Source of the DNA: a virus
Lineage: Duplodnaviria; Caudoviricetes
Length of the DNA stretch: 64,000 nt
Direction: 5' to 3' (one strand)
Virus record (IMG/VR): IMGVR_UViG_3300028591_000010
Location: 1 to 64,000 of that record
The first letter of the stretch is position 1, and every line of letters begins with the position of its first letter. The position numbers were made by a program, and so were the translations under genes. Shown piece by piece: positions 24 to 43,087 of this stretch. The notes beneath the pieces are model-generated. The model searched no databases. It was not told the origin of the DNA and worked only from the letters and a program-made list of their open reading frames with translations.

Positions 24-1547
24 ATGAATAATACTTTACTTAATAATCTCCAGCTGTATCGTGGACGTCGTTTCAGCGACCTGGTAGATGAGAACATGAT
101 TTCTAACGCTCTGCTGACCAAGCCTCATGAGGTATCTGGTCTGCTTTCACTGGTATTTGGTACTAAGGATGATGGTATTTCAACTACTATCGACCTGTTG
201 ACTGGTGGTCTGGGCAAGACTATGATTATTGAGAATCGTGAGTTTGAATGGAGTGTAATGGTTGACGCTGATCACGCTGTCAATATCCGCTGGGCTAAGT
301 GGAATGGTCAGGAGATCACATATTCTAACTATAACTCTATTACTCCTGGTTTGAACAATACTCCTATCTACCTGGCTCTCGAAGAGCGTTGGTTCGGTCC
401 TGGTGCAATTCTGTCGTTCGACGACTACAAGTTCCAGGTTCGTACAACTGGTCTTCCTTATCAGGATGGCAGCGCTTGGGTTTACGAGTGCTATGTTGTA
501 GATGGTTCACAGGCAGCTTATATTCCTGGTGAGTTCCTGATGCCTGGTCGTCAGGTAAGCCGTATCGGTTCTGCTTACGAGGAGTACAGTGATGAGGCTG
601 ATATCATCAACTATCAGACCCCATTCAAGATGCGCAATCATCTGCAGAATCTGCGTCTGACTTATGATATTACCGGTGATGCTTACAGCACAGTTCTGGC
701 TATCGCACTGAAGGATCCCGAGACTGGTAAGAGCTCTTATCTCTGGTCTGACTATCAGTACTGGAAGGCTCTACGTGAGTGGAAGAAGAGAGAGGAGACA
801 GCTCTCCTGTTCTCTAAGAGCAACCGTCTGAGCGATGGTACTTATATCAACAAGGGTACTAACGGTCGTCCTGTTCCTACGATGTCTGGTCTGTTCGAGC
901 AGATCTCTCCGGCTAACATCCGTTACTACACGACTCTTACAGCTGAGTTGTTCGAGGATTATCTGTTCGATCTCTGCTACAACATCCTGGGTACTAACGA
1001 GCGTAAGTTCGTTGCTCTGACCGGTGAGATGGGTATTCGTGAGTTCGACCGTATCCTGAAGGAGAAGGTTGCTAGCTTCAACCTGGTTGATAATATCTTT
1101 GTAACTGGTTCAGGTCAGAACCTGACTCTTGGTGGTCAGTTCACGACTTATAAGATGACTAACGGTATTGAGCTCTCTCTGAAGCGTTGTCCTATGTTCG
1201 ACAACATGGAGCTGTTCCGTCAGTTGCATCCTCTGACTGGTAAGCCACTGATGTCCTACACCTTCCTGTTTGTTAATATTAGCAACTTCGATGGTCAGGC
1301 TAACATCGTAAAGGTTTGTCGTAAGGGTCGTGAATTCGTTCAGTGGTACACTGGCGGTTCTGTAGCACCTAACGGTTATGCTAACAGCATCAACACTCTG
1401 CGTTCTAACAGCCGCGATGGTTACCAGGTTCACTTCCTTGGTGAAGTTGGTATCATGGTTCGTAACCCGCTGTCTTGCGGTATTCTGTACTGCGACGCTG
1501 AGGATACTGAAATTTCCAACAGTGGAATTCCTTCAGTTGGTGCGTAA
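24..1547 (+). CDS. Major capsid protein (crAss-like, HK97 fold)
   Basis: 507 aa with crAss MCP-like motifs (ENREFEW, GSAYEEYS, YWKALREWK, SNSRDGYQVHFLGEVG). No in-frame TAG, strongly biased codon usage, TAA stop, first gene of the structural module. Confidence 0.9.
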   Translation: MNNTLLNNLQLYRGRRFSDLVDENMISNALLTKPHEVSGLLSLVFGTKDDGISTTIDLLTGGLGKTMIIENREFEWSVMVDADHAVNIRWAKWNGQEITYSNYNSITPGLNNTPIYLALEERWFGPGAILSFDDYKFQVRTTGLPYQDGSAWVYECYVVDGSQAAYIPGEFLMPGRQVSRIGSAYEEYSDEADIINYQTPFKMRNHLQNLRLTYDITGDAYSTVLAIALKDPETGKSSYLWSDYQYWKALREWKKREETALLFSKSNRLSDGTYINKGTNGRPVPTMSGLFEQISPANIRYYTTLTAELFEDYLFDLCYNILGTNERKFVALTGEMGIREFDRILKEKVASFNLVDNIFVTGSGQNLTLGGQFTTYKMTNGIELSLKRCPMFDNMELFRQLHPLTGKPLMSYTFLFVNISNFDGQANIVKVCRKGREFVQWYTGGSVAPNGYANSINTLRSNSRDGYQVHFLGEVGIMVRNPLSCGILYCDAEDTEISNSGIPSVGA

Positions 1548-1564
1548 TATCTAATTAACACAAC

Positions 1565-1623: not shown

Positions 1624-2376
1624 ATGGTAGTTGAATTAAAAATTAAGAAGAAGAATCCCTGGATTGGGCTGATCAAGTATAAGAATTGTTTTGATTATAT
1701 TGCTCCTTATTTTACAAGATCCGGGTCGATATATACGGGTCTCACCCCAGAAGATGAGAAATATTTTGAGAAAGCTTTGGGTTATGAGGAAGGTCACCTC
1801 TCAAAGACGTCAGACTTTTGGCAGACATTCTGTGTAAAAGTAGGTACGCGTACGTTGCTGTTAGATGATTCTATTCCTCGTCAGGCTATGATTATTAAGT
1901 TCCTTAGCGGACATAAGCGTGTTGCTACGTCTCTCGATAAACTTGATGCAGGTAAAGACTATCTGTTGATCAATCGTGAGGCTGAAGCAGTAGAACAGAA
2001 CAAGCAGAATAAATTGCGTAGAGATGCTATCAAAGAGTTTGATAAACTGTCACTCGATCAGATGCGTCAGTGCTTACGCCTATTTGGTATGTCTTCAGAC
2101 CGTATGTCTAATGAACTCGTAGAATCTACATTGTTTAACTTGGTTGATAAGCAACCTAAGAAGTTCTTCGATAAGTGGGTTAATAATAAGTCTAAGGATA
2201 CTGAATACTTGCTTGAACAGGCCATTGCTAAAGGTGTAATTCGTAAAGACAAGACGCATTATTTTTATGGCACTGATATGTTTGCTGATTCGCTTGATGA
2301 TGCTATTGGATACTTAGACAGCAAAAAGAACCAAGATCTGAAGCTTGCAATCATAAACGAGACAAACAATAAGTGA
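1624..2376 (+). CDS. Conserved crAss-like protein immediately downstream of MCP (function unknown)
   Basis: 250 aa ORF without TAG, in the conserved position after MCP in the crAss capsid module. Confidence 0.75.
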   Translation: MVVELKIKKKNPWIGLIKYKNCFDYIAPYFTRSGSIYTGLTPEDEKYFEKALGYEEGHLSKTSDFWQTFCVKVGTRTLLLDDSIPRQAMIIKFLSGHKRVATSLDKLDAGKDYLLINREAEAVEQNKQNKLRRDAIKEFDKLSLDQMRQCLRLFGMSSDRMSNELVESTLFNLVDKQPKKFFDKWVNNKSKDTEYLLEQAIAKGVIRKDKTHYFYGTDMFADSLDDAIGYLDSKKNQDLKLAIINETNNK

Positions 2377-2398: not shown

Positions 2399-3994
2399 AT
2401 GACGCATAACAAGATATATACTAAATTCATGATAGAATATGACAAGGCAAATGTTACTTCGTCATATCCATCCCTTACAAAGTATGAAGCTGCGACTCTA
2501 TTAGACAGAGCGTATCTTGCTTTGATTTCAAGGAAACTTACGGGTAATAATACCCGTAGAGTTCCTTTCGAATATGATACAAAAGCAATAGAAGACTTAA
2601 GACCTCTTGTAACAACTAAGAGATTTGAGCAGAAAGGTGGTTCTAATATTGTACTAAATGAATATAAGTTTGGAATGCCAGATGATCTCTTATATTATAT
2701 AGAAGGTGTTGCTAATTATGGTTCAGAAAGAGAAATAGTACTTCCTGTAAATCATCAAATAGCTAGAAAGTTTAAGTATACTAATAGCAATATTCCTTGG
2801 GTTAATCACCCAGTATCTTATATAGAAGGATCTGAAATATATGTACTTATAGATCCGTTCTTACATACAAGTAGTCCAGATTTAGATGGTACTTATATAA
2901 AGAAACCCGCTAGTTTTGTAGTGTCTCTTAAGAAGATAGAAGACGATAACAATGACGGAAATAATTCTGGAGACAATGATGATGGTGGCGATAATAATGG
3001 AGGAGGAAATGATTCCGGAGGAGATAATGGCGGAGGTAATTCTGGAGGAGATGATCAAACTACAGTAACACCTCCAGTTATAACACCAGATGATCTTACT
3101 TTTGCAAACGTTCTTTACGTTAATATAACAGCTGCTAAAGCAGATCATATTGTCTATAGAGTGAATAATGGCACATGGAATGAATACACATGGCCTATAA
3201 CTATAACAGAAACGTCTACTATAGAAGCATACGTTGTATTAAATAATATTGTTAGTAGTACAGTAACTAAAACTTATACTAAACAATAGCAGCAACAGAC
3301 AACAATTAATCCTCCTAGACTTGTTGGTGCTACTTCGTTTATTGACAATACATACGTAGCCATGTATGCAGATGAAGGGTGCCAAATCAAATATACGAAA
3401 GATGGTAGCGATCCATTAACGTCTACTACGGTAAGTATTTATTCTGGATAGATAAAGATAGAAGAAACTACAATTATAAAAGCTGTTGCATGGAAAGACG
3501 ATCATCACAGTAAAGTAGTAACGTAGACTTATGTTAAACAATAGTTAGATTCGTCAACCACACCTACTGTTATTATAGAACAATGTAAATATGTACCGGC
3601 TAGTTCAAATCAGGCAGAAAGTATCTATATTAAACATCAAGTGAATTTAAATAATGTCGGTGTTCGTGTATATTTACACACAATGATTACTGACGACAAT
3701 AAGACGCAGCATGGAGAAATTATTCCTATAATATACGATGTGGAAAGCAAAGTATATGAATAGCTTTTGCCTTATACAAACGGCGATAAAAAAGTAAGAA
3801 TAAGATTGCGTGGTAGAGATAATGACATATTATATAGTGAAGTTTTTGCAGATATAACTGACTTGCCATCTAACGCTCCAGAAGCACCAGATCCAGAAGA
3901 AGGATTCGATTACGATCCATCTGCACCAACATTAGAAGAACTTACATCAAACGTATTAGGCGAAGCTACGCTTGGCGAAATAATATTACAATAA
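2399..3994 (+). CDS. Tail ring protein N-terminal part fused to a Gly/Asp/Asn linker and two Fn3-associated/CHB_HEX_C-like domains (TAG=Gln, 531 aa)
   Basis: Fragments 2399-3289 and 3767-3994 share a frame and are separated only by 5 TAGs. Ring motifs FEYDTKAIEDL and YIKKP, then IKYTKDGSDP...IEETTIIKAVAW. TAA stop. Confidence 0.75.
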
Positions 3995-3997
3995 TAT

Positions 3998-5587
3998 ATG
4001 GATAAATTAAACTTAACATTTAAAGAGGGAGATGTTTTACATGCATCTTCATTGACATCTATTGTACAGACTCTCAATAGTGTAATAGACAATATAAATA
4101 CTGCGATCGAGAGTATTTCGTCTGGAAGCGCAGCAGCTACGTATGATTATACTTTCGAATTTCACGAAGGTTACTCATTAGGATACAATCTTGTTATTCG
4201 TAAATATCAGGATGGTAAAACATACAGAGAAAAAGTAGTTCCTTATTATGAAAGCGTGACCACGATGGAAAATGCTTTAAAGGAGAAAGGTCTTTGTACA
4301 TCGTTTAATCTTACTGTGAAAGTTTAGGAAAGAACTACAGATGGCGAACTTAGTTTTACAACAGAAGGAAATCCTAAATTTATACGATGCGGAACTGATA
4401 TTCAAAATAATGGTTGGAAATTATCAGAAGGAACCAAAGCCGGACAAGGTAAAGGTTCTTTCGAATATATTCAAAGTCATTACTACTACAGTGCAGGAAG
4501 AAAACCTTGGAACGAAGGTCTTGATATAGGTGATGACAATGTCGTATATAATCCTCCTACAGAGTTTGAAGTTTATTCTAATCCAAAAATATACAAGATA
4601 ACACCGTGGTCAAGTAGTATGGACGGAATAGAATTTAATGTGGCAGAAAATGTCGAAGGTCTTAGTCTTATTAAAGCGATAAGAAATACTCTTACGACTA
4701 CTGTAGATAATGTACCTTCTACTTATACTCATGATACATATGTACACGTAGCAAAGGACAACATTCTTATGGAAGGATTTACTGTATTTAGAAGTTCTGA
4801 ATTAGATTGGAGTAAATTTATAGATCTGACTACTGTTGGAAACGAAACCAGCCCGAACATTATATTTGGAAATAACTTCAATTTTGATAGATGGTGTCGT
4901 GCGTATTTAAGTGATCCAGAATACTATCCAGATCCTTCTAATGGTTCTTACAGAGGGTATGTAAAATATTTTAAGAGAAATCCAAAAACTGGACAAGGAG
5001 GTTATGATTTTCTATAGGACGGAAATATAACTTTGAATAAAGGTGATATTTTTGTATACTTTAAAAAGAAAGAAAATATAGTTGGCACAAGAATTAATCC
5101 TACAGCAAAAATCTATATAGATGACATATGGATTAATCCTAGAGATTATGGTTGGGAAGGAGATACTTGGTAGTTTAACGCGTGTATAGATTTTATTATG
5201 TACGCCGCTCACAACGATCTCATAGGTTCTGATGGAAACATATATAGAGATGTCGATACAATTCCTGAAGGAATTACTACTATTCCAGCATGGATAAGTT
5301 ATTATGATTAGGCACATCACCTTCCAGATGGCACTATAATAGGTGTACTGGATGATGTAAACAACATTTATACTCCAAGTAAACCAAATGTTCATTATCA
5401 CGGAAAGTGGGTTAGACAATACAATTCGCTTGTAGGCACTGTACCTACTCATATATATACTATTCCTTGGGAAGAATATGTGTATAAATCAAATGGGGAA
5501 AGATGCAATAGATTTGGTGGAGATAACTACGAAATAATGGCCTTTTGTGCTAATCAAAAGATCGAGTTTAAAAATATCCAATTCTGA
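3998..5587 (+). CDS. Putative fiber/receptor-binding-like protein (TAG=Gln, 529 aa)
   Basis: Fragments 3998-4327 and 4619-5017 are in one frame, continuous through 4 TAGs to TGA 5585-5587. N-terminal FKEGDVLHA...LNSV motif resembles phage fiber N-termini. Function is inferred. Confidence 0.65.
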
Positions 5588-5736
5588 TGAAGTACGAATT
5601 TAGTGATACAGTTCAGTTCGAACTGTCAGATACAATGGCAGAAGAGCTTATAAGTCTTGCTGTAGCTATGGCACTTGAGAACGTAGAGTCTACTAGATTA
5701 CAAACTAAACTATCAACATTACCACTTGAAGGATGA
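5587..5736 (+). CDS. Separately encoded C-terminal helix of the tail ring protein (49 aa)
   Basis: MKYEFSDTVQFELSDTMAEELISLAVAMALENVESTRLQTKLSTLPLEG matches the C-termini of the two downstream ring paralogs. TGATG overlap upstream, ATGA overlap downstream. Confidence 0.7.
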   Translation: MKYEFSDTVQFELSDTMAEELISLAVAMALENVESTRLQTKLSTLPLEG

Positions 5737-6467
5737 GTTTAAAAGAAACAAGACAGCTTGGTATAGAGTTTGAACGTAGGGTACAGACTATGATACCTGA
5801 GACAGAGATTGTTTCAAAGCTGGACACTGACACTATATATTCTTTCTTAAACTAGTATCAAGATAAGTTTATAAGAGATATATATAAAGTGATGGACAAT
5901 ATCCCTACTCCTTCAAAGCCATCTAGCTATGTTGAGTCTATTATACAAGATTTAATTGTACATAAGAAATATACAGTTAATTCTAAGAATAATTAGTTCT
6001 CTATAGAAGTTCCTGATGATTTTGGATTGTATATCGATAGCACCACAAGCGTTAAAGATTCTAGTAGATATAAGACTTACGATAAAGGTTCTTTTAACGG
6101 CAATGGAGAGCTTCCTGTTACGCTTGTGTCTAAAACTAAGGCTCAAGAGTTTATTACTAGGCCATAGGATAATATGCGTATAATGAGGCAACCTATTGCA
6201 TTCTTGGATGGAAACGATAAGACTGGATATATTAAAGTGTATCATGATAGATATACAAAACCAGAATATTTCAATCTGTCTTATTATAGATATCCTAGAT
6301 ATATGAAACTTGCTTCAGGATCAGAATGCGAACTCGATCCGAAAGTATTCGATGATCTTGTAACTGGAGCAGTAGATTTATATGTATAGTATGTTGCTGG
6401 TGCTGAGGCTAGAAAGAGGTAGATGTCAGAACAGTAGAAACGAAACAATAAGGAGGATGAACAATGA
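5733..6467 (+). CDS. Tail ring protein paralog (TAG=Gln, 244 aa)
   Basis: MSLKETRQLGIEFERR...YYRYP...CELDPKVFDDLVTGAVDLY. Contains fragment 6174-6389. ATGA overlaps at both ends. Confidence 0.75.
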
Positions 6468-7207
6468 TAGGTGTAGATATACTAACAGCGTTTGAACTTG
6501 AGATAAACAAGATCAACGATACATTAGAGAAGCCTCTAACAGACGATTCGTTATACTGGCTTAATCAGGCTATAGTAAAGTTTACCAAAGATAGGTTTAA
6601 TGGTAACGCTCCTAAACGTACATCTTATGAATAGAACGAGAAACGTACAAGAGATTTGATAAACCTGTTTAGAAGTATAGATATTGAACCAGAAGAAGTT
6701 TTACAGCAAGCTGGTACTAAAGGAGGTCATCCTTACTATGTACACGTTAAAGGTCCTGAATAGCACGAAAGTTATGATGCATACGTATATAATTATCCAA
6801 CAGATATGATGTTCGTTCTCAGTGAAGATGTAGTTATATCTGACTTTGATGATAATTATAAGATGGATACGTGCGTGTTTGAATGTACGGCCGATAGTTT
6901 CATGTATAGAGTAAACAATAAGCTTACAGACTTTCACTATCGCTTTCATAGAGCAAGACCTCTCCGTATAAGAACCAAAGAGGGATTTAAGCTTCTTACT
7001 GATAAGAAATATAAGATTAATAGATATACTCTGGGCTACCTTAAGGTCCCAGAAGAAATAACAAGTGAAGATCCTTTTAAAGAATATAAGGACTTCGAAG
7101 ATTACACTTGGTTGGAAATAATTAAGATAGCCGCATAGATGTATGTAGAGAATCAATCAGATCCTCGCTACAAGACTATCACACAAGAAGTTCTAACACA
7201 AGAATAA
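6464..7207 (+). CDS. Tail ring protein paralog (TAG=Gln, 247 aa)
   Basis: WLNQA...SYE(TAG)NEKRTRDL...YLKVP...EIIKIAA(TAG)MYVEN. Contains fragment 6806-7138. TAA stop. Confidence 0.8.
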
Positions 7208-7283: not shown

Positions 7284-8492
7284 ATGGTAAATTATGTAAA
7301 TACTGTGCTCGTTAGCAATCTGTCTTCGGGCGCCGTTTTGAGTGCAGCTCCTGCAGCAGCTGCTAGTTTGAATGCTGCTTCTGATGATGCTGGTAAGTTC
7401 ATTCTGATGAACTGTGATCCTAATGTAGATTCTAACAAGATCTACGAGGTTACCGCTGCTAATGCTGCTAACATCAACACAATTAAGGTTGGTATCGTTA
7501 CAAAGAAGAACTCTGTTCTCCGTAATGCAGACGGTACTGTTACTTATACTCCAATCGTAAAGTGGTCAAACGAAATCAAAGCTGCTGATATTAAGAGTTA
7601 CAACGCTCTGACATACGCTGCTGACACTGAGGATTGTGTATACATCGACCTCAACAGTCTGACGGATATTGTCGGTAACGGCAATAGCGCTAAGGCCGGC
7701 ATTCGTGTTATCGTTCGTCTGACTTACAAGGATATGCCCCACCGTTATCGTAAGTGGACTGAGAGCTATGAGTATGTAACTGCACAGGGTGATACTAAGG
7801 CTAAGATTGCTGAAGGTATTGCTAAGATAATCAATAAGGAGTGGAAGCGCGCTCGCGTTCAGGCTACTCAGGGTACTGTTACTCTGTCTTCTGGCGCATT
7901 TGCAAGCTTCTCTTCTAGCAATTCCGGTACAGGTGTTAAGATTGAGGCCCTGCCTTACGACGATGACGACAGCGTAGATTCACTGAACTGGGCTAACAAG
8001 GTTCGCTTCAATGCAAACATCTACTGGACCGATCCTTCTGCTGAAGGTTGGGAGTCTCTGAATAAGCACTTCCCGAAGGGCGCTGCTGTTGTTAAGGTTC
8101 CTGGTCAGACATATCCTGCTTCTGCTAAGCTCGTCCGTGATCGTGAGAGCTGGGCTATGGGTTATCTGGGAATCCTGAACCGTGGTGAAGGTACGTGGCC
8201 TATCATCAAGCCTGCTATGGAGACCGATCTGACTGCGCACTACGATGCTCTTACTCTCGAGTTTGAGAATATGTATCGTGCAGCTGATGATATCCAGCGC
8301 AAGACGAAGCAGACCCTTGAAGTCTATGGTAAGACTGGTCAGCTGAGTGATATCAAGGCTATCCTTGACGCATTTGTAGAGGGTGTTGTTTCAAGCTCTG
8401 ATGCTGCACAGAATGCTGCTCTTGATCCTACTGTAGAAGGATCTCTTGCTGCTCGTGTTGCTGCTCTCGAGACTACTGTTAGCAACCTTTAA
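7284..8492 (+). CDS. Auxiliary capsid protein (crAss001 gp36-like)
   Basis: 402 aa, no TAG, MCP-like codon bias, motifs VRDRE..AMGYLG and YDALTLEFEN.Y, position after the ring genes. Confidence 0.7.
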   Translation: MVNYVNTVLVSNLSSGAVLSAAPAAAASLNAASDDAGKFILMNCDPNVDSNKIYEVTAANAANINTIKVGIVTKKNSVLRNADGTVTYTPIVKWSNEIKAADIKSYNALTYAADTEDCVYIDLNSLTDIVGNGNSAKAGIRVIVRLTYKDMPHRYRKWTESYEYVTAQGDTKAKIAEGIAKIINKEWKRARVQATQGTVTLSSGAFASFSSSNSGTGVKIEALPYDDDDSVDSLNWANKVRFNANIYWTDPSAEGWESLNKHFPKGAAVVKVPGQTYPASAKLVRDRESWAMGYLGILNRGEGTWPIIKPAMETDLTAHYDALTLEFENMYRAADDIQRKTKQTLEVYGKTGQLSDIKAILDAFVEGVVSSSDAAQNAALDPTVEGSLAARVAALETTVSNL

Positions 8493-8509: not shown

Positions 8510-8548
8510 GACTAGGGGTGGGGCAACTGCCCTATTCCTAGTTTTTTA
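8510..8548 (+). terminator. Rho-independent terminator
   Basis: GACTAGGGGTGGG...CCTATTCCTAGTT stem followed by a T run. Confidence 0.8.
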
Positions 8549-8562
8549 TTAAACAACAGCTT

Positions 8563-9462
8563 ATGGAAACAAAGAAGATTAGAATTGGAAACGACATAAG
8601 GCTTGCTGTGGACCTTCGTTAGTATATCAAAGATAAAAATCCGTATCTCTACGAAAGACGTGTGTATTTTCCAGGAGACGATGAGTTTGAACGCTTAGAT
8701 GACAATGAGTTTGTAAATAAGAAGACAGAACTCTATTATCCACCTCTTTATGATGAGGATGACGATAATCAGAATGGATCTGGAATTGCTTTTGATCCTA
8801 GTAATATACATCTTTGTATAAGAGAGGTAAAGGCAATATTAATAAACACGTCGCTTTAGAAGAAGCTAATCGATAAGCATAGAAAAGAAAGTAGATTTAT
8901 CGGTAGATTTCCTGTAGAACCTGGAATTCCTCCATTCTATCCTACACATCACGATCTGTGTTGTAGCGGATTTCCTGGATGGAGAGCTTATCCTGGCTTC
9001 GGAGTATATCCTCACTGGGGAGCTTTGTATCATCGCATGCCTAAAGTAAACCCTGTAGAATACTAGGCAGAAGCAATGGCTACTAACAAACAAAACGTTG
9101 TAGAAGTTATGTTTCCAGCTGAAGCTCAGCTTTATACAGGAAAATATAAGCTCGTTATTGTTGCAAAAGTATTTGCTCCAGGTTTTAACAATAAAAACCT
9201 CAAAACAATAACGCTCGATGTTCCAGATGTATTTGAACTCGTTGGTTCTACAGAAGAAGGTATAGATACTGGATTTAAGATTAACGTTTCAGAAGTAATA
9301 GATATTCTTCCAGATGAGAATTACTTCTATACTCCACCTGAGTTAGATGTATTCGTAAATGAAGGAGAGATTGGAGACAACCACTTATTGCTCAATAGAA
9401 CAGACAGTAATGTCGTAGATGTAGACTTGAGTAGCGTAGTTGGTTGGCATGATGAAAATTGA
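8563..9462 (+). CDS. Hypothetical virion-module protein (TAG=Gln, 299 aa)
   Basis: Starts METKKIRIGNDIRL and joins fragments 8662-8859 and 9076-9462 in frame through TAGs. TGA stop. Confidence 0.7.
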
Positions 9463-9465: not shown

Positions 9466-9753
9466 ATGGAAAAGTGGAAAGATATTACTCAGTATAGTAC
9501 AGCTGTAACAGCCTTTTTAAGTGGTGTTGCGCTGGCGTTTATACAGTATTTTGAAACTGGCGATCTTACCAGCGGAGTGTTAGGTTATGTTGCTCAGGTA
9601 TTAGTATATGCTGCTGGTATCTTTGGAGTAACGATGTATTGGAATGGAAAGTATCGTGAGACGATGAACGTCTTGGATAACAGATATAAACGATTAGAGA
9701 AAGCGATAAATGATAGGAACAACACTGACGTGGTTAGTGGTCCATCGAAATAA
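9466..9753 (+). CDS. Holin-like membrane protein
   Basis: 95 aa, two hydrophobic helices and a charged C-terminus, next to a spanin-like gene. Confidence 0.6.
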   Translation: MEKWKDITQYSTAVTAFLSGVALAFIQYFETGDLTSGVLGYVAQVLVYAAGIFGVTMYWNGKYRETMNVLDNRYKRLEKAINDRNNTDVVSGPSK

Positions 9754-16617: not shown

Positions 16618-16619
16618 TT

Positions 16620-32400: not shown

Positions 32401-35400
32401 TATCGTTCGACGGAGAGACTATAAGCGAACCATTTAATAAGTATGAACAAGATTATTCTTACTTACGCAGACAGTTGAATACTGATCCTGAAGATAAAGA
32501 TGAAAATCATATTGGTACACAGATGATGAAGATTGGTCTTTCTAATCTTGTTGCAGAACGTACATATATTGATATGGATGGCAATGAGATTACTGGAGAT
32601 CAGATACTCGAAACAATGATGTCTTCTATCAACGAGCTTGCTAACATAGGAGCTCAGGAGATAAAAGACATGTTTATGACAGTAGATACATAGACTGATG
32701 AAAACGGTAATATAATCTCTTCAGAAGAACGAATAGACTATAAGAAGTTGTCTGAATATCTGAATGAACAATTGACGTCTAGAAATGCTAATAAGACTAT
32801 CATACAGGCTATTCAAACTACTCCTGATGGCAAGAAACTTTCTTCACCTTTAGCAGCTACCCCAGATGCAGCTTGGATTGAGAGTATTTTTATATCTACA
32901 ATGAACAAACACATTGTTGATATAACCACTCCAGGTAAATCATTTGTGCAGCGTTCTGTTTGGGCAATGGAAGGAGATAGTAATATGTCTCCTACTCTCA
33001 ATAGGGGTTAGAAACTTCAGATGATCAACGAAGATCACAGTATGGATGCTGTTATCAGTATAGATTACTTTAAGGATATACTTCCAGAAGGATTATCCTT
33101 CGAATAGTCAAAACAATGGCTTATTGATAATGGTATTATCAGTGGTTATAGAACTAATGACGAAGATATGTCACAAGAATGGTTTGATGCTGAAGCCGTT
33201 ATGATAGGATATCGTATTCCAACTCAGGCTCAATCTTCTATTCATGCTTTACGTATTGTAGATGTATTACCAGCAACAAAGACCACTATTATACTTCCAG
33301 AAGAATTTACTAAAATTACAGGTTCTGACTTTGATATTGACCATTTGTATTTGGCTTCATTCAATTTTAGAAAAGGTGAAGACGGAATGATGACTAGGAG
33401 TTTTGATGTTGGTACAAAAGAATATCATCAAAATAAGATACTTGAAATGTTGATGGTTCTTTTGAAAGATACAGAACATTCTCTCAATCATCTATATAAA
33501 CCAATTGACAACGATACAGAACTTGTTACAGACGTATCAGATTATATTGAAGAGAGTGGAAGTACTAAAGATAGTCCTTATAACTTTGGAACTTTGCACG
33601 AGCAAGTAATACGTAAAAATGACTATATTACTGGTAAGAAAGGTATCGCTCCTTTTGCTTTGAATTCTACAAGTCACGTAATGTGTAGAAACTACGGCGT
33701 AAAGTTTAAAGGCACAAAACTTGTAAATAATACAAGGCTTAAGGATTTTGATAGTAGAACAGATAAGGATAATAATCCTGTAGAATCTTGGTTGTCTGGA
33801 TTTATCAACGCTCACGTAGATATCGTAAAAGATCCTTATATTTCTAGATTGAATGTAAATCCATTTACATACAATATGCTCAATCTTATGATACGTTGTG
33901 GATGGGGAGATACCGCATTGTGGTTCTTAGCTAATCCTATTATTAGATCTATGGCTCAAGCAAATGATCTTGCAGACAGTCAATATATGAGAAGACCTAA
34001 TAAGAATAAGACAGGTAAGTCATATAGAGAAGAGCTTATATTGAATGCTGTAAAAGAATATCTTACTGATGCAGAAGTATCTGATGAAAAGATAGAATGG
34101 CTGCTAACTAGTCCTCAAGCATCTGATCAACGTATAGCATACGTAAGAAAACTTGATCAAATACAATCTAAACTTCAAGATTGTGCAATTAAAGGTACAG
34201 TAGATCACGATACTGCGCTCACTGTTTTCTATGCTTGGAAGATTCTTGAAAAATATTCTAGAGCGTTGGGTAATCTTGTTTAGCATACAAAAGTTGATAC
34301 CAGAAAATATGGTAAAAACTTTATAGCTGTGCAGAAATACTACTCTGACTATAAGAAATTATTTAGACCTAAAGGAGAAGATGCTGAGAATAGTGTTTGG
34401 GATATAGAATCGTTAAAGAATCTTGAAGAAAATTCATGGATAGGTACAAAAACAGATCTTGTAGCTCAAATGCCAATGTAGATATTTGGTGGTCTTACGT
34501 TCAATGCAAACGAGAAATTCATAAACGCTGTAATTAAGTTCTCTAGAATACTCGAAAGGGGCGGAAAAGAATTATCTGCAGACGATGTTGTACAGTTGTC
34601 TAGACATATGCAAACAGCGATCAAGTCTAAGTATTTTGTGAAGTATGCTCACGATGTACTCAAAATGTCAGATAAAGACATAGCTGATTTGTTTACTGGT
34701 TGGAAGAGCATGAATAGACAATTAGTCTCGTTAAAAGACTTAATTGCTAATGATCCAAAATATGCTAGACTTGCTTCTAATACATTCTTAAATCAAATCT
34801 ACTCCATGCTTGAAGACAAACCCGTGTTCGCGAATGGTAGAGAAATGGCAGATAGACCTGGATTTGTTACTGTACTCGATAACGTAGATGACAGCAAACT
34901 CAATTCTGATTTATTGTCTGAAGGTTGGTTAGATCTTATGAATGATGAAGATACTAGAGTTCGAAAGTTTGCCAAGAAGATGGTACTATATGCCTTCTTT
35001 ACGTCTGGTGAATTTAAAGGTTGGAATAAACTTTTGAAGTATGTTCCGTACGAATGGATATCTGGTGAAGTAGATCCACAATACCAATCTTATTCTGAAT
35101 TTATTGAAGAAGAATTATAGAATATATCTGACGACTATTCTGATCTTTACGATGACATCGTTGCTAACAACTTCATGGATTATAGATTTGCTGAACAAAC
35201 GACTGTAATTAACGAAGACGATAGCAGGAATTTCTTAAACGACGATAGAGGGGTTAAGATTGGTAAAGGTGTTGTGTTTGATCAGATAGACGACCTTTCT
35301 GAATATGTAAGTATACTCAAAAAAGGTATGCGAGCAGGTCATCAAGATTCTTATGAACTATACAAGTTAATAGATGTTGTAAAACAAGGGAAGTTGTATT

Positions 35401-35774
35401 ACCCAGTATATGCAAAGATTAAGAAACGTGGTTATCATACACGTGGCAACGATATCTATGAATATGGATGGGATTTCAATTATGCTGAGAATGAAAGAAA
35501 AGGATCTGATACATTTGATTATGAGTCAGCTATACAAAGAGTTGTAGAATATCTGAACAATGGAGAATTGTATGGATTCTCAGATGCAGATGTAAGAGCT
35601 ATCAATAAGATATATATTAGACCAGAAAAAGAAGAGCAAGTTGCTCCAAAACCAAATGAAGATGGGGTTGAATACGATTGGTAGTATATGGAAGACTCTG
35701 GTTATTCTGGAGCACTTGAAGAATTCTCTGATGAAGATGTAAATTATGAATTTGTGAATCATTGTAAACATTAA
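20478..35774 (+). CDS. Giant virion RNA polymerase polyprotein (TAG=Gln, ~5098 aa)
   Basis: More than 20 ORF-track fragments share one frame and end in TAG. Catalytic GSDFDID (33321-33341), GYRIPTQ, KRIGG and ADG motifs, zincin HEAFH (28350-28364). First TAA seen is 35772-35774. Gaps were spot-checked, not exhaustively. Confidence 0.85.
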
Positions 35775-35779
35775 CGACT

Positions 35780-38700
35780 ATGATAATATGTCCTAATTTG
35801 AGTAACAAAGAAGTTGCTCAAGAATTTGATGAATTAAAGTCCGCTTTAATGGCGGCAGATCCTAAACATGGAGAAGCGATGGCATATTAGGTGTGGTCGC
35901 TTAACAATGGTAATGCTATAGATAAGGCCCCAAATGGGGCCGAATCTTAGCTTTTTAAAAGTTTAGTGGATTACTATGAAGGTGATCGTTCTAAAGCGAT
36001 TGTAGCCAAAGCTAAGACATATTCTACGAACTTTTTAAAATGGTTTGGTAATTGGACAGGAGAAAAAGACGCTTTACCTGAGTTTGAACAAGGAGAAGTA
36101 TCTAAAGTTGTAGATGAGAATGGAGAACCTCTTGTTGTATGGCATGGAAGCAGAATATCAAATAACATTGAAGAGTTTCAAAACGACAATACATTTTTTG
36201 CAGATAGATATACTGCGTTTTCATATACCCCATTTGATGCTGAAGACGAGAGTGAATATATGTATCCTTCTTTTTTAAGTATAAAAAATCCTAAAATTAT
36301 TGACGCAAATGGTAATTTTTGGAATAATATAGAAGGAGAATCTACTGATGATATAGCTAAGAGTCTATCGGGAAACGATGGGGCAATTATCTCAAATTTA
36401 AAAGATTATTCTGATTTTACTCCAGGAAATCCAGAACTTAGTGTTGAACTTTTAAACGAAGCACCGCTTCATACAGATTATATTACTTCTTCTTCAGATC
36501 AAATAAAACATATAGATAACCGTGATGGAGAATATACAGGATCAAATATATATCATAATTTGAAAGACGAAGATGGAAATTATGAAGACGAAGTTCCGTA
36601 CGATGAAGTTTTTTCTCCTTATCCAGAATATGACGAAGAAGCAAAGAAAATGTTTCAACGCCTTGATATATTACAAAAGGAATTTAATGACTTAAAAAAC
36701 AAACGATTAGAGCTAAATAAAAAGCTTCAAGAGGCAAAATGTGACACAATTTCTAAAAAAATAATAACACTTGGAGACGGAAGAATTAAGTTTGTAGAAA
36801 AGCCTAATCATTTATTACATATAGATAATGACCAACGTATATTTACACTTGTTTCTGCTTCTATGTAGCTTGATGGAAATGTGGTAACATTTCCGTTATT
36901 ATTTCCGTCTAGAAATGTCATAAATCCTTCGTATAATTATTATAGAACAGACAACTCTATACGCGACAATACAAATAGACTTGTATATGAAATGTTATCT
37001 GTTTTAAAAAATCATGGACACTCTATAATATATTCTCCTTGGCACGTAGTAACATCCGGACTTTATTCTGAACCAGATAATGCTGGAAAATAGATAGAAC
37101 GAATGTCAAAAGTTCTTGGCATAAAGTTATCAGATTTTGTAACGCATGAAGAAACTGTTGTAGAAGATGATCAACTAAACGGAAAAGTTAGATATTACAG
37201 AATTGTGTTTAATATAGACACAATGTTGAATAGACTTAATGTTATTGGACACAATAAAGAAATATATGACATAATCAATAAAGCTTACGAACAAAAACCG
37301 GTTTCTAAAAATAATGATCTTTTAATAAAAGCCTTATAGTCGGAAGAAAGAGATATAGATGAACGTCAATCTCAAATTCAAAAAGAGATGCGAGATATAA
37401 ATGAAGGTTTATATAAAAAAGAACAAGAAAATTCAGACTTACCGTTTAATGTAACACAAGGATCGTTAATATGGCTTGTCAAAAAATATATAAACGAAGG
37501 CAGATCTAAATAGGATTTGCAACATATATTAAATGAGATAAACTATATAAACGGATCTAAAATAAAAATTAATTGGAGTAATTTTGAAGTTTACGGTGAA
37601 TAGTTAAGTGGAAAAGATAACATAAAAAGAACAAACGACGATAATGAGGAACGCATAAAAGTTATTGTAAATTATCTAAATGAAAAATTTGGAAATAAAC
37701 TACAAGTAGAATATATAGACGAAGATGTTTGGTTAAGAGACGGTAGATTATATAATGGTTCTAATTCTTGTGTAATTGGAGATATTATATATCTTCGTAA
37801 ATCTAGAATGACTACGGAAATAGCAGCAGAAGAAATGCTTCATACTCTAATTCACGGGATGAAACATGGAAATAACGAACTCGGAAATAGATAGTTATTT
37901 GATAACCTTTTCGAAAAAGCTAAATAGTAGTTCCCAAAATTATGGGAAGAAATACAGTCTGTATATAAATATAATCATGATGAAGAACTTGTAACTTAGG
38001 TACTAGCTAGATATTTTAATAGAGATTTTGATAAACACGATACTTACAAATTAGAAGACCTTATAAACAAATTTAAAAACTGGTTTATAAAGCTATTTAA
38101 AGATTTATTAGAAGAATTTGCCGGAAATTATTATACTACTGTCGGTAATATAAACCCGTTAGTAGATTTCTAGGACATAAGTGATATGTTACTTGCAAAA
38201 AATCTAAAATTTGATATATAGACGATACCAGAAATACATAAGGAAAATTTATCTAACAAAACTTCTCATATATATTCAGAAGATCAAATATTACATAGTA
38301 TATCGACTCGTCAACAGGCTGCTCAAGATGAAGCGAACCGTCTTATTACTCGTATGAACGTATTATATAAACAATACGAAAAGATAAAAGACAAGACTCC
38401 TTCGCAAGAGAGATTAGCTAATCAAATATTTGAAACATTAAATAGACTTAAATAGCATAGAGATATATCTGCTGTACAGATAGCACTAGAACAGGCTAAG
38501 TTAACTCTTGGACAATATGATCCTACAACAGGAGAACCTGTTCAAATAAGTAGTATATACAAATATCTATACGATGCTCAGCAAAATGGATTCTCTGGAC
38601 TATCTCCACAGTCGTTAGTAGATATGTATAGAAACTCCATTAAGTTCTATAAAGACTTAATAGATAATATACCTTCTGAACAAGCTATTGATCTTACACA

Positions 38701-41700
38701 AGAAGATAAGGATTCTATAGCAAACTTGAAATCTCTTATAGACGATCATATAATGCCTATATGGACACAGGCTATTATGACTATAGGAGATCAGATAGTA
38801 GACGATTAGATAGACTCTGAAGTGTTTTCGTCTGAAGAAAATAAGGAAGATATGAAGAAAGTTGCTAAAGACTGGCTTCATAAGAATCTTATGTACGGCG
38901 ATATTACAGCAGTTACTAGCTATGTATATAACTACTCTAACTCTTCTAATCCTATAATTAAACAAGCTTTTCATCTTATACAATCTGCAGAATAGAAGAC
39001 TCTTGAAGAAGTACATGGAATAGCTCCAAAGTTAATGAAAGCTTATTAGAAAGCTAATAGTGGAACTAGGTCGTTTACTCCAGGATGGTAGTCTATGATG
39101 ATGGAATTCGATGATAAAGGTATTCCTACTGGAAACTTTGTAAGAGATATTAATTACGGTTTATATCAAAAAGACTTCAAAGAGTTTTTAGAAAAACTTA
39201 ATGAAGATTTTATACGTAAATATAAATACACATACGTTGTCGATGATACTGGCGCTATTACTAACAGCTTAACTGGTGAGTTTGCTGAAGATGAAGAATG
39301 GGGTTCAAACGGAGAAATGCCTAAATATATAGAGTATTTGCAAGAAATAGAAAACTTCAAATCAGATCGTGTACATAGGAGATATAAACCTCAATATTAT
39401 ATGGAAAGGTTGAGTAGACCTTATGATGGTACTATTGATCCTATGAATCCTGATTTCAAAGGTACGAAATTTCATCATGGTTTATCTCCAAAAACCCTGT
39501 CTAGATATTCATACTATCAGAGTAATATTAATTACTATCTGAACAAATGTTAGGATCCTGTTACGGGTTTAGTATATCCAGAAAAATTATCTAAAGACGA
39601 TTAGTTCTCCTTAGATAAATGGAAAGACAGACTCGATAAATTTACATCTATTTTTAATGAAGATGGTTCTTACAAGATTGGTGAGGATTTGAAAATGGCC
39701 TATGAAGTGCGTGCTTGGTAGAAGTGGCTTGGCCAACATACGAATGCAGAAGTGATGTAGGATGACTTTAATAGAGAGCGTGTACAAATATAGCAAGAAT
39801 CTATAAACACAGGAAATCCTAAACTGTTAGATGACTTCTTAAAGTATAACTCTAGAGCAGGTATAAATCCAGACTATATAAAACAGTCAGTAGGAAGTAT
39901 GCATTCTGATAAGATAGATACAGATACTTCATTTAGGGGTAAATTGTTAAGATCTTCATTATAGGGAATGGTTAGTAACCCTAGAATATTCGGAAGAGAG
40001 CTTTAGAAGATGATTAACAACCCATTATTCTGGTTGTAGTGTAAAGCATCTGATCAAGCTATAGAAGATGCAAACGATCCAACTAATACTAGCGGATGGA
40101 CAAAAGATCAAGTAGAAGCGTTCTAGAATGACTTTTATCAGAAAGACATTCTATATGTAGACGAGTACGGTTTTTATATTGATGAAAACGGAAATAAAAT
40201 AAACCCAAGTGATCCATCTGCGAAAGGATTAGAAGACGCTGGAAAACTTTTAACGTTTAGACAATATCTTATAAATAGATATACAGATGAAGCTTTACGT
40301 ACTGGTCAAGTTTCTGGTCTTATAGACGAATCTACAGGTACTCCAATAGACTTTAGTGGTTTAACACAAACTCAAATAAGAAAACAAATATCTAACTTAC
40401 TATCTTATAAGAAAACTTATTGGGATGAAGACGGTAATATTGATAGAATAGAAGACGAACCTCTTACTATATTCTCAATATTAGCCCCATCAAAAGACAA
40501 GTTCTTCAATACACGTACAAATAGAGAAGAGCCTACTGTTGTTTTAGTTGGAGATTCTAGATTTAAAGACTCTCAATCATTCTTGAGTGATACGTATTAT
40601 GAAAAATATAATAAAGGAAATCAAGTAGCAGAAATACCTGATATAAATTACGATAATGGCAGATACGATAATTCAGAAGCTTATAATAAAGTCATGCAAG
40701 ATGATGATGTACGCGAGTTGTATGAATTATTAGTATAGACTATGTAGGATATGCAGGCTATATACTCTACTAATAGAAAATTTAATTATAAACTTCCATA
40801 GATAAATGCTCGTACGTGTGCTTTATTCTCTAGATTACTAAAACGAGGATACACCAAGAAGTCTATACAAGGTATGTGGGATTCTATGACTAATATAGAA
40901 GCTAACGATGATTTATTGCGTACTAAGTAGGATTATTTTGTCGGTGTAGATGGAGAAGTAGGTAATGATGTACCTTTGAAGTTTATAAGAGATCTTAAAA
41001 ACAAAGAGGATTTATCTACAGATTTGGTTAGTTCTGTCATCATGTTTGTTGACATGGCTCTTAATTATAAGAACAAATCAGAAATAGATTCGAAACTCAA
41101 AGTGCTTAGATATAACATGGATAAAGATGTCCGTGAAGTATATGAGAGTAAACTTAAACCAAGACAAGAACAATCTGCAAAAGAGAATAGTAACTCCATA
41201 AAAATGTTTGATTCTATGATGGACGTGTCTATGTATGGTAATAAGTTCGGTAATACTTCTGAAGGAGGTCCAAGTCGAACTAGAGTTGCTTTACATAAAA
41301 CAGCAGATGTATTCCAAGAGGTAGAATCTACAGCAATGCTTGGTTTAAATATGTTTTCTATGGCAGTAGGGTTCGGAGATTCTATTACTCGTATCGTATC
41401 AGAGAGTGTAGCCGGTAAATATATGACAATTGGAGATTGTCTTTGGGCTTTAGGTAAATGCCTATATTATACTCCAGCGTGCATAAAAAATATGTTCAAT
41501 CCTTTAGCTAACAATAAGATGACTGCTCTCATGTAGATGAATGGTATATCTAAAGGAACATTCGGTACATATGTGAAAGCAGATTGGGGTAAAGGTAGAA
41601 AATTCTTAACGAGTATTCTTATGGGCGGCTGGTCTATGTTAGATTGGATGGCTAATGCTTTACTTATGATGTCTTTCTATCATAATTGTAGACTATACGA

Positions 41701-43087
41701 AGGTGCAGAAATACCAAAAGGATTCTATACTAAATATGAAATGCAATAGGCATTCATAAATGCTGGAAAAACAAAGTCTGATGGCACTAAAGCGTTCCAT
41801 AATTACTCGCATTTAGGTAATCGTATTACTCTGTGGGACGCATATGAATTCAAAGGAGGATAGGTATCTATTAAACCTCAATATGAACAATATGTAACAT
41901 AGAGGGTAAAGACTAACATTGCTACTAAAACTAAGAAACGTGGAGCTCTATACAATGGTATGAATCCAGATAATGATATCCCTCGTTGGAAACGTGATGT
42001 GATTGGTAGATTAGCTGGTGCATTACGTGCGTGGATTCAACAGCAAGTTCAACATCTTGTCGCAGGTGGAACAGATAGTATTGCAAGAGGCTAGCGCGAA
42101 GAACTTAGCTATGAGTCTAATACTAGCGGTACTAAATTAAAACGTAGATATAAGAATTTAACATAGGGTGAAATAGATGCGATTGACGCAGAAATAGCCC
42201 GCGCTAAAAGCGCTGGAGAAGATGTAAATTCTAAAGAGTTTTAGAAGAAACTTCGCACTATACAAAAACAAGCAAAAGATTTACAAAATGTTAGAAAAAT
42301 GGCGTGGGACTATGAAACTGGAACCCCATAGGATCAAATATTAGTCGGTTTAATAAGGTCTCTCAGAACTTTGTTTAGAGAAGCAAATCAAATGCTCTTA
42401 CATAAACCACGTACCGCTAAATTATCAGAAGTAGAAAAATATGCTTGGAAAGATACATTAATATTTATAGGAATGCTTTCTATGATGATGATAGGGTGGA
42501 CATTTATCCATGATGATGCAAGAGAAGTACCTAAACCTACTACAAGAGAAGAAGCTGGACCAGCATCAATGTTAAATCCTGTAGATTATTATGAGTATAT
42601 ACGCGACATTTATATTCCAAATCAATATTGGAAGTTAGCAACTGACGATATATATTTCAGAATAGTGGAAGCTAAAATATCAAGTGTAAACGTTCAACAG
42701 GTATTAGATATTGTGAACGCTCTTACAGCGTTGAAAAGCGGTTTCGATAATCAATTTGCTCTAATATTAAATGACGACGATGATTCTGAAGGTATATTAA
42801 AACAAGGAGGATATAAATTCTATACAAAAGGAGAAAAAGCTTTATACAAAGCAGTTGGTCCTGTGAATAATTTACATACCTTCTTGACATATTACGGTGC
42901 TACAGGTAACCTACGTTGGTATACAAATAAGTTCGGTAAAGTGTATAGAGCTTTTGGTTACGACTTTAAAGCAAAAGACAAAGCTGCAGATAAGAAAAAA
43001 TCAGCAGTAAATGAAGGATTCTCTGGAGGCGACTTCAGTGAAGGTGGATTTGAAGGCGGCGGATTTTCTGGAGGAGACTTCTTCTGA
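35780..43087 (+). CDS. Large ejected polyvalent protein with ART-PolyVal-like domain (TAG=Gln, ~2435 aa)
   Basis: Eight fragments in one frame. FLKWFGNW...SKVVDENGEPLVVWHGS...MYPSFLSIKNP near the N-terminus, degenerate zincin AEEMLH, TM segment near the C-terminus, TGA stop. Confidence 0.75.

What the first reader, a model, noticed from the sequence alone, without database searches (positions are those of the whole stretch)
24..43087. Two genetic codes in one genome: TAG=Gln in late genes, TAG=stop in early genes
Seen: + strand fragments line up in single frames broken only by TAG, and the joined genes end in TAA/TGA with ATGA or TAATG overlaps. TAG sits where Gln is expected, e.g. SYE*NEKR (6632) and KQ*QQQ (3287). 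The MCP, the gene after it, the auxiliary capsid and the holin have no in-frame TAG, while the spanin-like, tail and cargo genes have many. On the - strand TAG still terminates genes (59176, 62378), and polB ends TAG-TAA, which is safe in either code. Established: amber-to-Gln recoding of late genes is reported in some crAss-like phages. Inference: recoding acts as a timing switch for tail, cargo and lysis genes. No canonical CTA suppressor tRNA was found in this window.
Basis: partly seen in the sequence, partly recalled or inferred. Interest (0 to 1): 0.7.

Follow-up and report, generated by a model that had tools for sequence, protein, structure and literature searches.

The report
TAG-as-glutamine late genes, crAss-like phage
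This complete 106-kb crAss-like gut phage writes its virion, tail, cargo and lysis genes with the stop codon TAG meaning glutamine, keeps its replication genes in the standard code and carries its own glutamine-type suppressor tRNA, which is a clean but already published habit of this phage group.

Summary
Reading TAG as sense raises coding density of the + strand block (1-43100) from 0.53 to 0.98. Control recodings (TGA=W, TAA=Q) give 0.58-0.62. Fragments fuse into genes of up to 5100 codons, and a 1398-aa product matches the crAss muzzle-protein model end to end across 19 TAGs.

TAG means glutamine. In cr272_1 and nine IMG/VR relatives, Gln codons or TAG itself face most TAG sites, and Gln beats every other residue by 89 log-likelihood units.

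Its 5' half is identical to bacterial tRNA-Gln.

The 22 minus-strand replication genes in the window have 0 in-frame TAG in 5317 codons, and four of them end in TAG.

Three corrections:
- The split is by gene module, not strictly by strand. One minus-strand gene outside the window carries five Gln-TAGs.
- The TAG-free capsid genes also avoid CAA, so codon optimisation explains them better than timing does.
- The timing switch is inferred, not shown.

The phenomenon, the glutamine assignment, the spanin bias and the timing hypothesis are all published for delta-group (~105 kb) crAss-like phages (Yutin 2021; Borges 2021 preprint; Peters 2022). This scan has logged the same kind 133 times in at least 89 genomes. 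Verdict: real, correctly read, already known.

The parts
24..1547 (+). Major capsid protein, 507 aa, 0 TAG; all 16 Gln codons are CAG
   Evidence: phrog_11589 E 1.9e-125; codon counts
1624..2376 (+). Gene after MCP, 250 aa, 0 TAG (7 CAG, 2 CAA)
   Evidence: 88% identical to cr272_1 homolog
2399..3994 (+). 531-aa gene with 5 TAGs, the first at 3287. The CHB_HEX_C_1/Fn3_assoc domain (residues 317-378) lies after that TAG and spans another (residue 351)
3998..5587 (+). 529-aa gene, 4 TAGs; absent from cr272_1
5733..6467 (+). 244-aa gene, 6 TAGs
6464..7207 (+). 247-aa gene, 3 TAGs; the TAG at 6632 faces Gln codons in 8 of 8 relatives
7284..8492 (+).
8518..9462 (+). 314-aa gene, 4 TAGs
9466..9753 (+). 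95-aa holin-like ORF with two hydrophobic segments, 0 TAG (too few Gln codons for this to be significant)
9710..10342 (+). Spanin-like gene, 210 aa, and the most recoded gene: 10 of 14 Gln are TAG. Five TAGs sit in 16 codons (9857-9902), and four of them stay TAG in 6 to 9 of 9 relatives
   Evidence: weak Rz-like spanin hit, phrog_89
10342..11076 (+). Virion structural protein, 244 aa, 5 TAGs
   Evidence: phrog_9863
10979..11509 (+). 176-aa gene, 2 TAGs
   Evidence: phrog_12177
11484..12431 (+). 315-aa gene, 6 TAGs (50% of its Gln codons)
   Evidence: phrog_33740
12421..16617 (+). Muzzle protein, 1398 aa, 19 TAGs; one continuous protein
   Evidence: PF25731 crAss_MUZ, residues 8-1259 on model positions 2-1221 of 1224, E 1.9e-108, plus crAss_MUZ_C
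16614..19004 (+). 796-aa tail/cargo gene, 16 TAGs
19001..20491 (+). 496-aa gene, 12 TAGs
20472..35774 (+). Giant 5100-aa gene, 50 TAGs; homolog of the 6386-aa cr272_1 gp23
35780..43087 (+). 2435-aa polyvalent cargo-type protein, 39 TAGs; ART-PolyVal domain at residues 112-251
43150..63304 (-). Replication/early block: 22 genes, 5317 codons, 0 in-frame TAG (170 CAA/CAG); stops are TAA 13, TGA 5, TAG 4
50828..52693 (-). Family B DNA polymerase ending TAG-TAA; its last residue aligns with the last residue of the cr272_1 polymerase
   Evidence: phrog_1252
56380..57033 (-). Early gene ending in TAG, with the ATG of the next gene starting 3 nt after it
59176..59676 (-). Early gene ending in TAG (read-through would add 27 aa)
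62378..62800 (-). Early gene ending in TAG (read-through would add 15 aa and cross a second TAG)

Best explanation
The window is part of a complete, circularly assembled 106-kb crAss-like phage (Crassvirales, Suoliviridae/Oafivirinae, the 'delta' group).

Shown:
- Its long + strand block runs from genome 77338 through the contig end to window 43087. It holds the packaging, capsid, tail, muzzle, cargo and lysis genes and uses TAG as a glutamine codon, for 27% of all Gln positions.
- The decoder is a phage-encoded tRNA with anticodon CUA, built on a bacterial tRNA-Gln body. It sits at genome 76681-76755, co-oriented with the recoded block and just upstream of it.
- The minus-strand replication block is written so that it reads correctly in the host's standard code: it has no in-frame TAG, and TAG is still used as a stop.

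Inferred:
- The host GlnRS charges the suppressor tRNA.
- Early genes are translated on arrival.
- TAG-bearing genes can give full-length products only once the suppressor has accumulated. Recoding therefore acts as a translational licence for late genes. It is tightest for the spanin-like lysis gene, whose five-TAG cluster is kept as TAG across relatives.
- Abundant capsid proteins avoid TAG and CAA alike, because TAG is a poor codon.
- Single ORFs carry 36-50 TAGs, so per-codon read-through must exceed roughly 0.95-0.99. This implies that host RF1 is outcompeted or disabled late in infection by an unidentified means.
For: Open frames and domain continuity:
- Coding density rises from 0.53 to 0.976 only when TAG is read as sense.
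- 291 in-frame TAGs against 0 TAA/TGA in 23,962 codons.
- The muzzle Pfam model matches full length across 19 TAGs, and the CHB_HEX_C_1 domain spans a TAG.

Glutamine identity, scored with X at every TAG:
- In HSPs of at least 50% identity to cr272_1, 26 of 46 sites face Gln and 9 face TAG. Log-likelihood for Gln is -447 against -536 for the next best residue, Lys.
- In nine IMG/VR relatives, 103 Gln codons and 53 TAGs make up 266 facing codons.
- In the portal, the conserved columns are Gln in the standard-code ProJPt-Bp1 phage.

Suppressor tRNA:
- ARAGORN calls anticodon cta, and Rfam tRNA scores 31.4 bits against a gathering score of 29.
- Its 5' 20 nt match bacterial tRNA-Gln in 118 of 119 typed genome hits, mostly Bacteroidota.
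- 19 viral loci (9 distinct sequences) keep every stem pair, with compensatory changes in 5 of 7 acceptor pairs and one T-stem pair.

Early block:
- 0 TAG among 170 Gln positions. Late genes with similar CAA bias have 23% TAG.
- polB ends where its homolog ends.

Literature: the same phenomenon is reported in delta-group crAss-like phages (PMC7886860), the spanin bias and timing model in 10.1101/2021.08.26.457843, and peptides with Q at TAG in PMC9523058.
Against: - Nothing here measures timing. The promoter scan was uninformative, and it is unknown whether the suppressor is expressed early, middle or late.
- The suppressor scores barely above the Rfam threshold and has an irregular T stem, although that irregularity is conserved.
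- One minus-strand gene (genome 73629-74129) is recoded, so 'strand equals code' is too simple.
- No release factor, GlnRS/GluRS or recognisable anti-RF1 gene was found, so the means of efficient suppression is unexplained.
- Only four early genes end in TAG. For two of them (59176, 62378) no homolog confirms the C-terminus.
Confidence: 0.9

Rival explanations
1. The code is uniformly TAG=Gln throughout infection, with no temporal switch. The suppressor would be available from the start, the TAG 'stops' of early genes would simply be read through into short extensions, and the early genes would lack TAG for some other reason.
For: Read-through of the four TAG-ended early genes would add only 1-27 residues. 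The RefSeq annotation of cr272_1 applies TAG=Gln to the whole genome. One minus-strand gene does use TAG as Gln.
Against: There are 0 TAGs among 170 Gln positions in 22 early genes, against 23-27% in late genes (P below 1e-19). This is not explained by codon bias. polB ends at TAG exactly where its homolog ends and has a TAA backup. The TAG at 56380 is followed 3 nt later by the next gene's start codon. Metaproteomics of other crAss-like phages found no recoding in proteins of the standard-code genome region (PMC9523058).
Confidence: 0.07
2. TAG distribution reflects translational cost rather than a clock. TAG would be just a slow, leaky Gln codon that drifts into weakly expressed genes and is purged from highly expressed ones. 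Early genes would lack it only because they need efficient translation.
For: Among late genes the TAG share tracks the CAA share (Spearman 0.50, P 0.007). MCP, 7284-8492 and 90142-91023 are almost pure CAG.
Against: Early genes have an intermediate CAA share (35%) yet zero TAG. The spanin-like gene is an outlier, with 71% TAG at a 50% CAA share. Four of the five TAGs in its cluster are conserved as TAG in 6-9 of 9 relatives, where synonymous CAA/CAG would be free. This rival explains the TAG-free capsid genes but not the module boundary.
Confidence: 0.25
3. TAG encodes another amino acid (Glu, Lys, Tyr and so on), or the TAG-broken ORFs are decaying pseudogenes or separate small genes.
For: Some TAG sites face Lys or Glu in relatives. 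Other notes of this scan report phages in which TAG seems to mean Glu.
Against: Gln wins the likelihood comparison by 89 units over Lys and 99 over Glu. The tRNA body is Gln-type. There are no TAA/TGA in 23,962 codons, and Pfam domains run across TAGs.
Confidence: 0.02
4. Recoding mainly serves conflict rather than timing. The suppressor would damage host or competitor translation by reading through their TAG stops, or TAG-laden genes would be unusable to hosts and rival elements.
For: Suggested in PMC7886860. The cargo protein carries an ADP-ribosyltransferase domain typical of host-takeover proteins.
Against: This does not by itself explain why replication genes stay in the standard code or why the spanin-like gene is the most recoded. 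It is compatible with the best explanation rather than exclusive of it.
Confidence: 0.2

Closest known systems
TAG-recoded delta-group crAss-like phages (Suoliviridae), e.g. cr272_1 / Buhlduvirus porcinus NC_055903 (Yutin et al. 2021, PMC7886860)
   Same: Collinear genome with 77-88% protein identity in MCP, portal and terminase. TAG=Gln in the late block. A tRNA-CUA at the same position before the dUTPase gene. Standard-code replication block.
   Different: A different genus-level lineage (nucleotide identity only about 78% over 16% of the first 20 kb). The suppressor has a different body with an irregular T stem. There is an extra 2.3-kb insertion at 3290-5587.
[quoted passage not shown] (10.1101/2021.08.26.457843; published in Nat Microbiol 2022, from my own knowledge)
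   Same: Same genome size. Late structural and lysis block in the alternative code and replication genes in the standard code. Spanin and a nearby tail gene preferentially use TAG over CAA/CAG. Same timing-switch hypothesis.
   Different: I could not check whether this genome belongs to their set. The CAG-only, TAG-free class of abundant capsid genes and the recoded minus-strand gene did not appear in the passages I read.
[quoted passage not shown] 2022, PMC9523058)
   Same: Same recoding. That study observed peptides with Gln at TAG in structural and tail proteins, and none in the standard-code region.
   Different: Those are different phages from human samples. There are no protein data for this genome.
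Dual-coded phage genomes as handled by Mgcod (10.1101/2022.06.29.495998)
   Same: Genome divided into blocks that use different codes (abstract).
   Different: I did not run that tool. Here one recoded gene sits inside a standard-code block.

Membership tests
Code-15 (TAG to Gln) late-gene-recoded crAss-like phages | In-frame TAG, and only TAG, interrupts conserved phage genes; reading it as sense restores full-length ORFs | tested here: met
   Density 0.53 to 0.976; controls 0.58 and 0.62. Muzzle model matches full length over 19 TAGs.
Code-15 (TAG to Gln) late-gene-recoded crAss-like phages | TAG positions correspond to glutamine in homologs | tested here: met
   Gln is the best residue by 89 log-likelihood units. 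103 Gln codons and 53 TAGs among 266 facing codons in nine relatives. Portal columns.
Code-15 (TAG to Gln) late-gene-recoded crAss-like phages | Phage-encoded suppressor tRNA with anticodon CUA | tested here: met
   Genome 76681-76755. Gln-type body. Covarying stems in 19 loci. Published surveys find a suppressor in only a minority of recoded genomes, so this feature is supportive rather than obligatory.
Code-15 (TAG to Gln) late-gene-recoded crAss-like phages | Recoding confined to the structural/lysis module; replication module in the standard code | tested here: met
   0 TAG in 5317 early codons against 181 in the window's late genes. One exception lies outside the window.
Code-15 (TAG to Gln) late-gene-recoded crAss-like phages | Peptides carrying Gln at TAG positions | not testable with these tools
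   Needs proteomics; shown for other crAss-like phages in PMC9523058.
Code-15 (TAG to Gln) late-gene-recoded crAss-like phages | Temporal change of code during infection | not testable with these tools
   Needs a time course in a cultured host; it is also only a hypothesis in the literature.
Crassvirales, Suoliviridae | Signature genes (MCP, portal, terminase, muzzle) and gene order | tested here: met
   phrog_11589; PF25731. Best nucleotide and portal hits are Suoliviridae/Oafivirinae records. Collinear with cr272_1.

The most novel reading that the evidence does not exclude
In this clade TAG may work as a graded translational dial, not just an on/off licence:
- absent from the most abundant capsid proteins;
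- moderate in tail and cargo genes;
- fixed as a conserved five-TAG cluster at the start of the spanin-like lysis gene.

The clade-specific suppressor, with its conserved irregular T stem, may be tuned for this role (for example through EF-Tu affinity or escape from host tRNA surveillance). ORFs with up to 50 TAGs need near-complete read-through, which would require an unrecognised phage factor that neutralises host RF1. Finding that factor would be new.
Probability: 0.2. Interest if true: 0.55.

Novelty: already known. Interest (0 to 1): 0.15.

Why it matters
For annotation, this genome must be called with TAG=Gln in its late block and the standard code in its replication block. Otherwise 40-odd fragments replace 16 real genes, or early genes are over-extended.

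Biologically it adds a well-resolved example to a published class, and nothing about the class changes.

The open question it illustrates is how a phage achieves near-complete suppression at up to 50 TAGs per ORF in a standard-code host, with no release factor or synthetase of its own.

Tried and rejected
Rejected readings:
- Control recodings TGA=W and TAA=Q do not restore ORFs.
- Searches of the whole phage genome for release-factor domains (PF03462, PF00472) and the GlnRS/GluRS catalytic domain (PF00749) found nothing, while the control genomes rang.
- The Glu, Lys and other readings of TAG lose on likelihood.
- The sigma-70-type promoter and terminator scan around the suppressor gave no more sites than shuffles and does not cover Bacteroidota promoters.

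Searches that gave nothing:
- PHROGs and Pfam gave no function for the recoded minus-strand gene or for the TAG-ended early genes.
- Pfam found nothing in the 5100-aa protein.

Of limited use:
- The 119 near-identical portal homologs show Gln at 7 of the 10 TAG columns in most or all sequences. They may themselves have been translated with TAG=Q, so I did not count them as independent. I fetched DNA of named relatives instead.

Calls that failed:
- One homolog search failed because I joined two genes in different frames.
Full report
**What the DNA is.** The window is bases 1-64000 of a single 106,373-bp contig with a 128-bp terminal overlap. The collection rates it a complete virus record.
- Nucleotide and protein searches place it among crAss-like phages of Suoliviridae/Oafivirinae. 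Nearest named records are cr272_1, cr131_1, cr273_1 and a Bohxovirus.
- It is collinear with cr272_1.
- Genes are arranged as one long + strand block (genome 74684 to the contig end, continuing at window 24-43087) and one minus-strand block (43150-74545).

**Checking the observation.**
- Under table 11 the + strand of 1-43100 is a litter of 40 ORFs of at least 100 aa with density 0.53. With TAG read as sense it becomes 16 genes with density 0.976.
- Reading TGA or TAA as sense instead gives 0.58 and 0.62. The minus-strand part of the window barely changes, 0.78 to 0.80.
- The + block holds 291 in-frame TAGs and no TAA or TGA in 23,962 codons, although TAA/TGA occupy about 7% of codons in the off-frames.
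- The joined products are real proteins. The 1398-aa product of 12421-16617 matches the Pfam crAss muzzle model from position 2 to 1221 of 1224 (E 1.9e-108) across 19 TAGs. In 2399-3994 a CHB_HEX_C_1 domain lies downstream of the TAG at 3287 and spans another TAG.
- The contexts quoted for 3287 and 6632, the TAG stops at 59176 and 62378, and the TAG-TAA end of polB are all as stated.

**Which residue TAG stands for.** I masked TAG as X so that alignments could not be biased.
- Against cr272_1, 198 TAG sites aligned. In segments of at least 50% identity, 26 of 46 face Gln, 9 face TAG, and no other residue appears more than three times.
- A likelihood comparison of the facing-residue profile with the substitution profile of each amino acid in the same alignments gives Gln -447, Lys -536, Thr -541, His -542 and Glu -546.
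- In nine IMG/VR relatives fetched around 10342-11076, 34 in-window TAG sites face 266 codons: CAA 58, CAG 45, TAG 53, Lys 24, Glu 14, the rest scattered. The site at 6632 faces Gln codons in 8 of 8.
- In the portal, TAG columns that are conserved are Gln in other Suoliviridae, including the standard-code Azobacteroides phage ProJPt-Bp1.
- Recoding is widespread in the family. In-frame portal TAG counts are 4 in cr272_1, 15 in cr53_1, 17 in cr114_1, and none in ProJPt-Bp1 or crAss001.

**The decoder.**
- The window holds only tRNA-Arg(TCT) and a permuted-tmRNA call. The rest of the genome holds tRNA-Glu, tRNA-Met and a 75-nt tRNA with anticodon CTA at 76681-76755 on the + strand.
- Rfam's tRNA model scores the CTA tRNA at 31.4 bits (gathering score 29), because the T stem has a G opposite GA in place of one pair.
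- It is nevertheless a maintained tRNA. 19 viral contigs (9 distinct sequences) share its anticodon arm and the same irregular T arm. Every proposed pair is standard in every sequence. Compensatory changes occur in five of seven acceptor pairs and in T-stem pair 48-63, CG to TA.
- Its 20-nt stretch spanning the end of the acceptor 5' strand and the D arm is found exactly in bacterial genomes, mostly Bacteroidota. Of 119 such hits typed by ARAGORN, 118 are tRNA-Gln.
- The tRNA therefore derives from, or mimics, host-type tRNA-Gln. This agrees with the protein evidence independently.
- cr272_1 has its own CUA tRNA at the syntenic place before the dUTPase gene.
- The phage encodes no release factor and no GlnRS/GluRS. 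Charging by host GlnRS is inferred.

**The standard-code block.**
- The 22 minus-strand genes in the window (polB, primase, helicase, exonuclease and others, named from PHROGs and the cr272_1 annotation) have 170 CAA/CAG and no TAG in 5317 codons. They end in TAA 13 times, TGA 5 times and TAG 4 times.
- polB's last residue before TAG-TAA aligns with the last residue of the cr272_1 polymerase.
- The TAG at 56380 is followed three bases later by the next gene's ATG.
- Late genes with a similar CAA/CAG balance carry 23% TAG, so the absence in early genes is not codon bias (P about 5e-20).

- The rule is not strictly by strand. The minus-strand gene at genome 73629-74129 is 55% identical over its full length to cr272_1 gp63. 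It has five in-frame TAGs, four of which face Gln.
- There are two kinds of TAG-free gene. Early genes exclude TAG regardless of codon bias. MCP (16 CAG, 0 CAA), 7284-8492 (8 CAG, 0 CAA) and a few other abundant virion genes exclude TAG together with CAA. Among late genes the TAG share follows the CAA share (Spearman 0.50, P 0.007). For these genes TAG looks like a poor codon purged by selection for efficient translation, not a sign that they are made before the switch.
- The spanin-like gene 9710-10342 is the outlier. Ten of its 14 Gln are TAG. Five lie within 16 codons just after the N-terminal membrane segment, and four of these five remain TAG in 6 to 9 of 9 relatives.
- In-frame TAG is followed by A in 42% of cases, against 32% for CAA/CAG (P 0.02). 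From my own knowledge, that is the direction that favours amber suppression in E. coli.

**Mechanism.**
- Shown: the recoding, the glutamine meaning, the Gln-type suppressor, and the module boundary.
- Inferred: host GlnRS charges the suppressor. Early genes are translated by the unmodified host apparatus. TAG-bearing genes yield full-length protein only after the suppressor accumulates, which delays tail, cargo and above all lysis functions.
- With 50, 39 and 36 TAGs in single ORFs, a full-length yield of even 10% needs about 95% read-through per codon. Ordinary bacterial amber suppressors are well below this (own knowledge). Host RF1 must therefore be outcompeted or disabled by something not recognisable in the sequence.

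**Comparison with the literature.**
- Yutin et al. [quoted passage not shown] They state that reassignment is usually seen only in the parts of the genome holding putative late genes, and that suppressor tRNAs are often but not always present.
[quoted passage not shown] They find the replication machinery in the standard code and the structural and lysis unit in the alternative code. A spanin, an amidase and a tail-tube gene are preferentially recoded. They propose exactly the timing and lysis-control model.
- Peters et al. detected peptides with Gln at TAG in crAss-like structural proteins, and none in proteins from the standard-code region.
- A gene finder for such dual-coded genomes exists.
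- This scan has recorded the same kind of finding 133 times in at least 89 genomes.
- Other notes on this genome describe the anticodon-less tRNA-like elements and the permuted tmRNA that I also ran into.

**Verdict.** The finding is an additional example of a published phenomenon in the very clade where it was described. Its value is practical (correct annotation) and illustrative. The only threads with some novelty potential are the conserved irregular suppressor T arm, the recoded gene inside the standard-code block, the two classes of TAG-free genes, and the unexplained need for near-complete suppression.

Noticed in passing
genome 76681-76755 (L004:12681-12755), outside the window: The suppressor tRNA(CUA) has a conserved irregular T stem (three pairs, a G opposite GA, then one closing pair). 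19 related viral contigs share it. A sister group of contigs has the same anticodon arm but a regular T stem.
   Followed up: partly
genome about 76540-76680 (L004:12540-12680): Two anticodon-less tRNA-like elements (an acceptor-like end plus a GGTTCGAWTCC T arm) sit directly upstream of the suppressor tRNA. The proximal one ends in ACCAACCA and shows covarying stems in four relatives. They belong to the family that another note on this genome describes.
   Followed up: partly
genome 73629-74129, minus strand (L004:9629-10129): A 166-aa gene of unknown function inside the otherwise TAG-free minus-strand block carries five in-frame TAGs, four facing Gln in cr272_1 gp63. It has no PHROG or Pfam match.
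   Followed up: partly
window 63538-63729, minus strand: Match to Rfam tmRNA_permuted (RF04321, 58.2 bits, gathering score 47) next to tRNA-Arg(TCT). ARAGORN also calls a permuted tmRNA at 63282-63760. cr272_1 is annotated with a tmRNA as well.
   Followed up: no
window 3290-5587: Relative to cr272_1 this phage has about 2.3 kb extra. This is a C-terminal extension of gene 2399-3994 with a CHB_HEX_C_1/Fn3_assoc carbohydrate-binding-type domain, plus a 529-aa gene with no family match. The extension starts at the TAG at 3287, about where the cr272_1 homolog (294 aa) ends.
   Followed up: partly
window 35780-43087: The 2435-aa protein has an ADP-ribosyltransferase domain of polyvalent proteins (PF18760, residues 112-251), which fits an injected cargo protein.
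   Followed up: no
L003:47215-48339 (cr272_1 gp01, record 97215-98339): The RefSeq annotation of cr272_1 reads TAG as Gln genome-wide. One minus-strand CDS runs through two TAGs and corresponds to two separate genes here (62807-63304 and 62378-62800). It may be an over-extended early gene.
   Followed up: no
protein P0119 (portal homolog from the database): A 1194-aa portal relative, 83% identical, carries Hint_2 and homing-endonuclease domains, that is an intein inside the portal gene of a close relative.
   Followed up: no
all + strand recoded genes: In-frame TAG is followed by A in 42% of cases against 32% for CAA/CAG, and by C in 12% against 17% (chi-square P 0.02). This is a mild context bias.
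   Followed up: partly
genome 87669-89894 (L005:7669-9894): A 741-aa BspA-type leucine-rich-repeat protein (PF13306, E 2.7e-68) is among the most recoded genes: 18 TAGs, 55% of its Gln positions.
   Followed up: no
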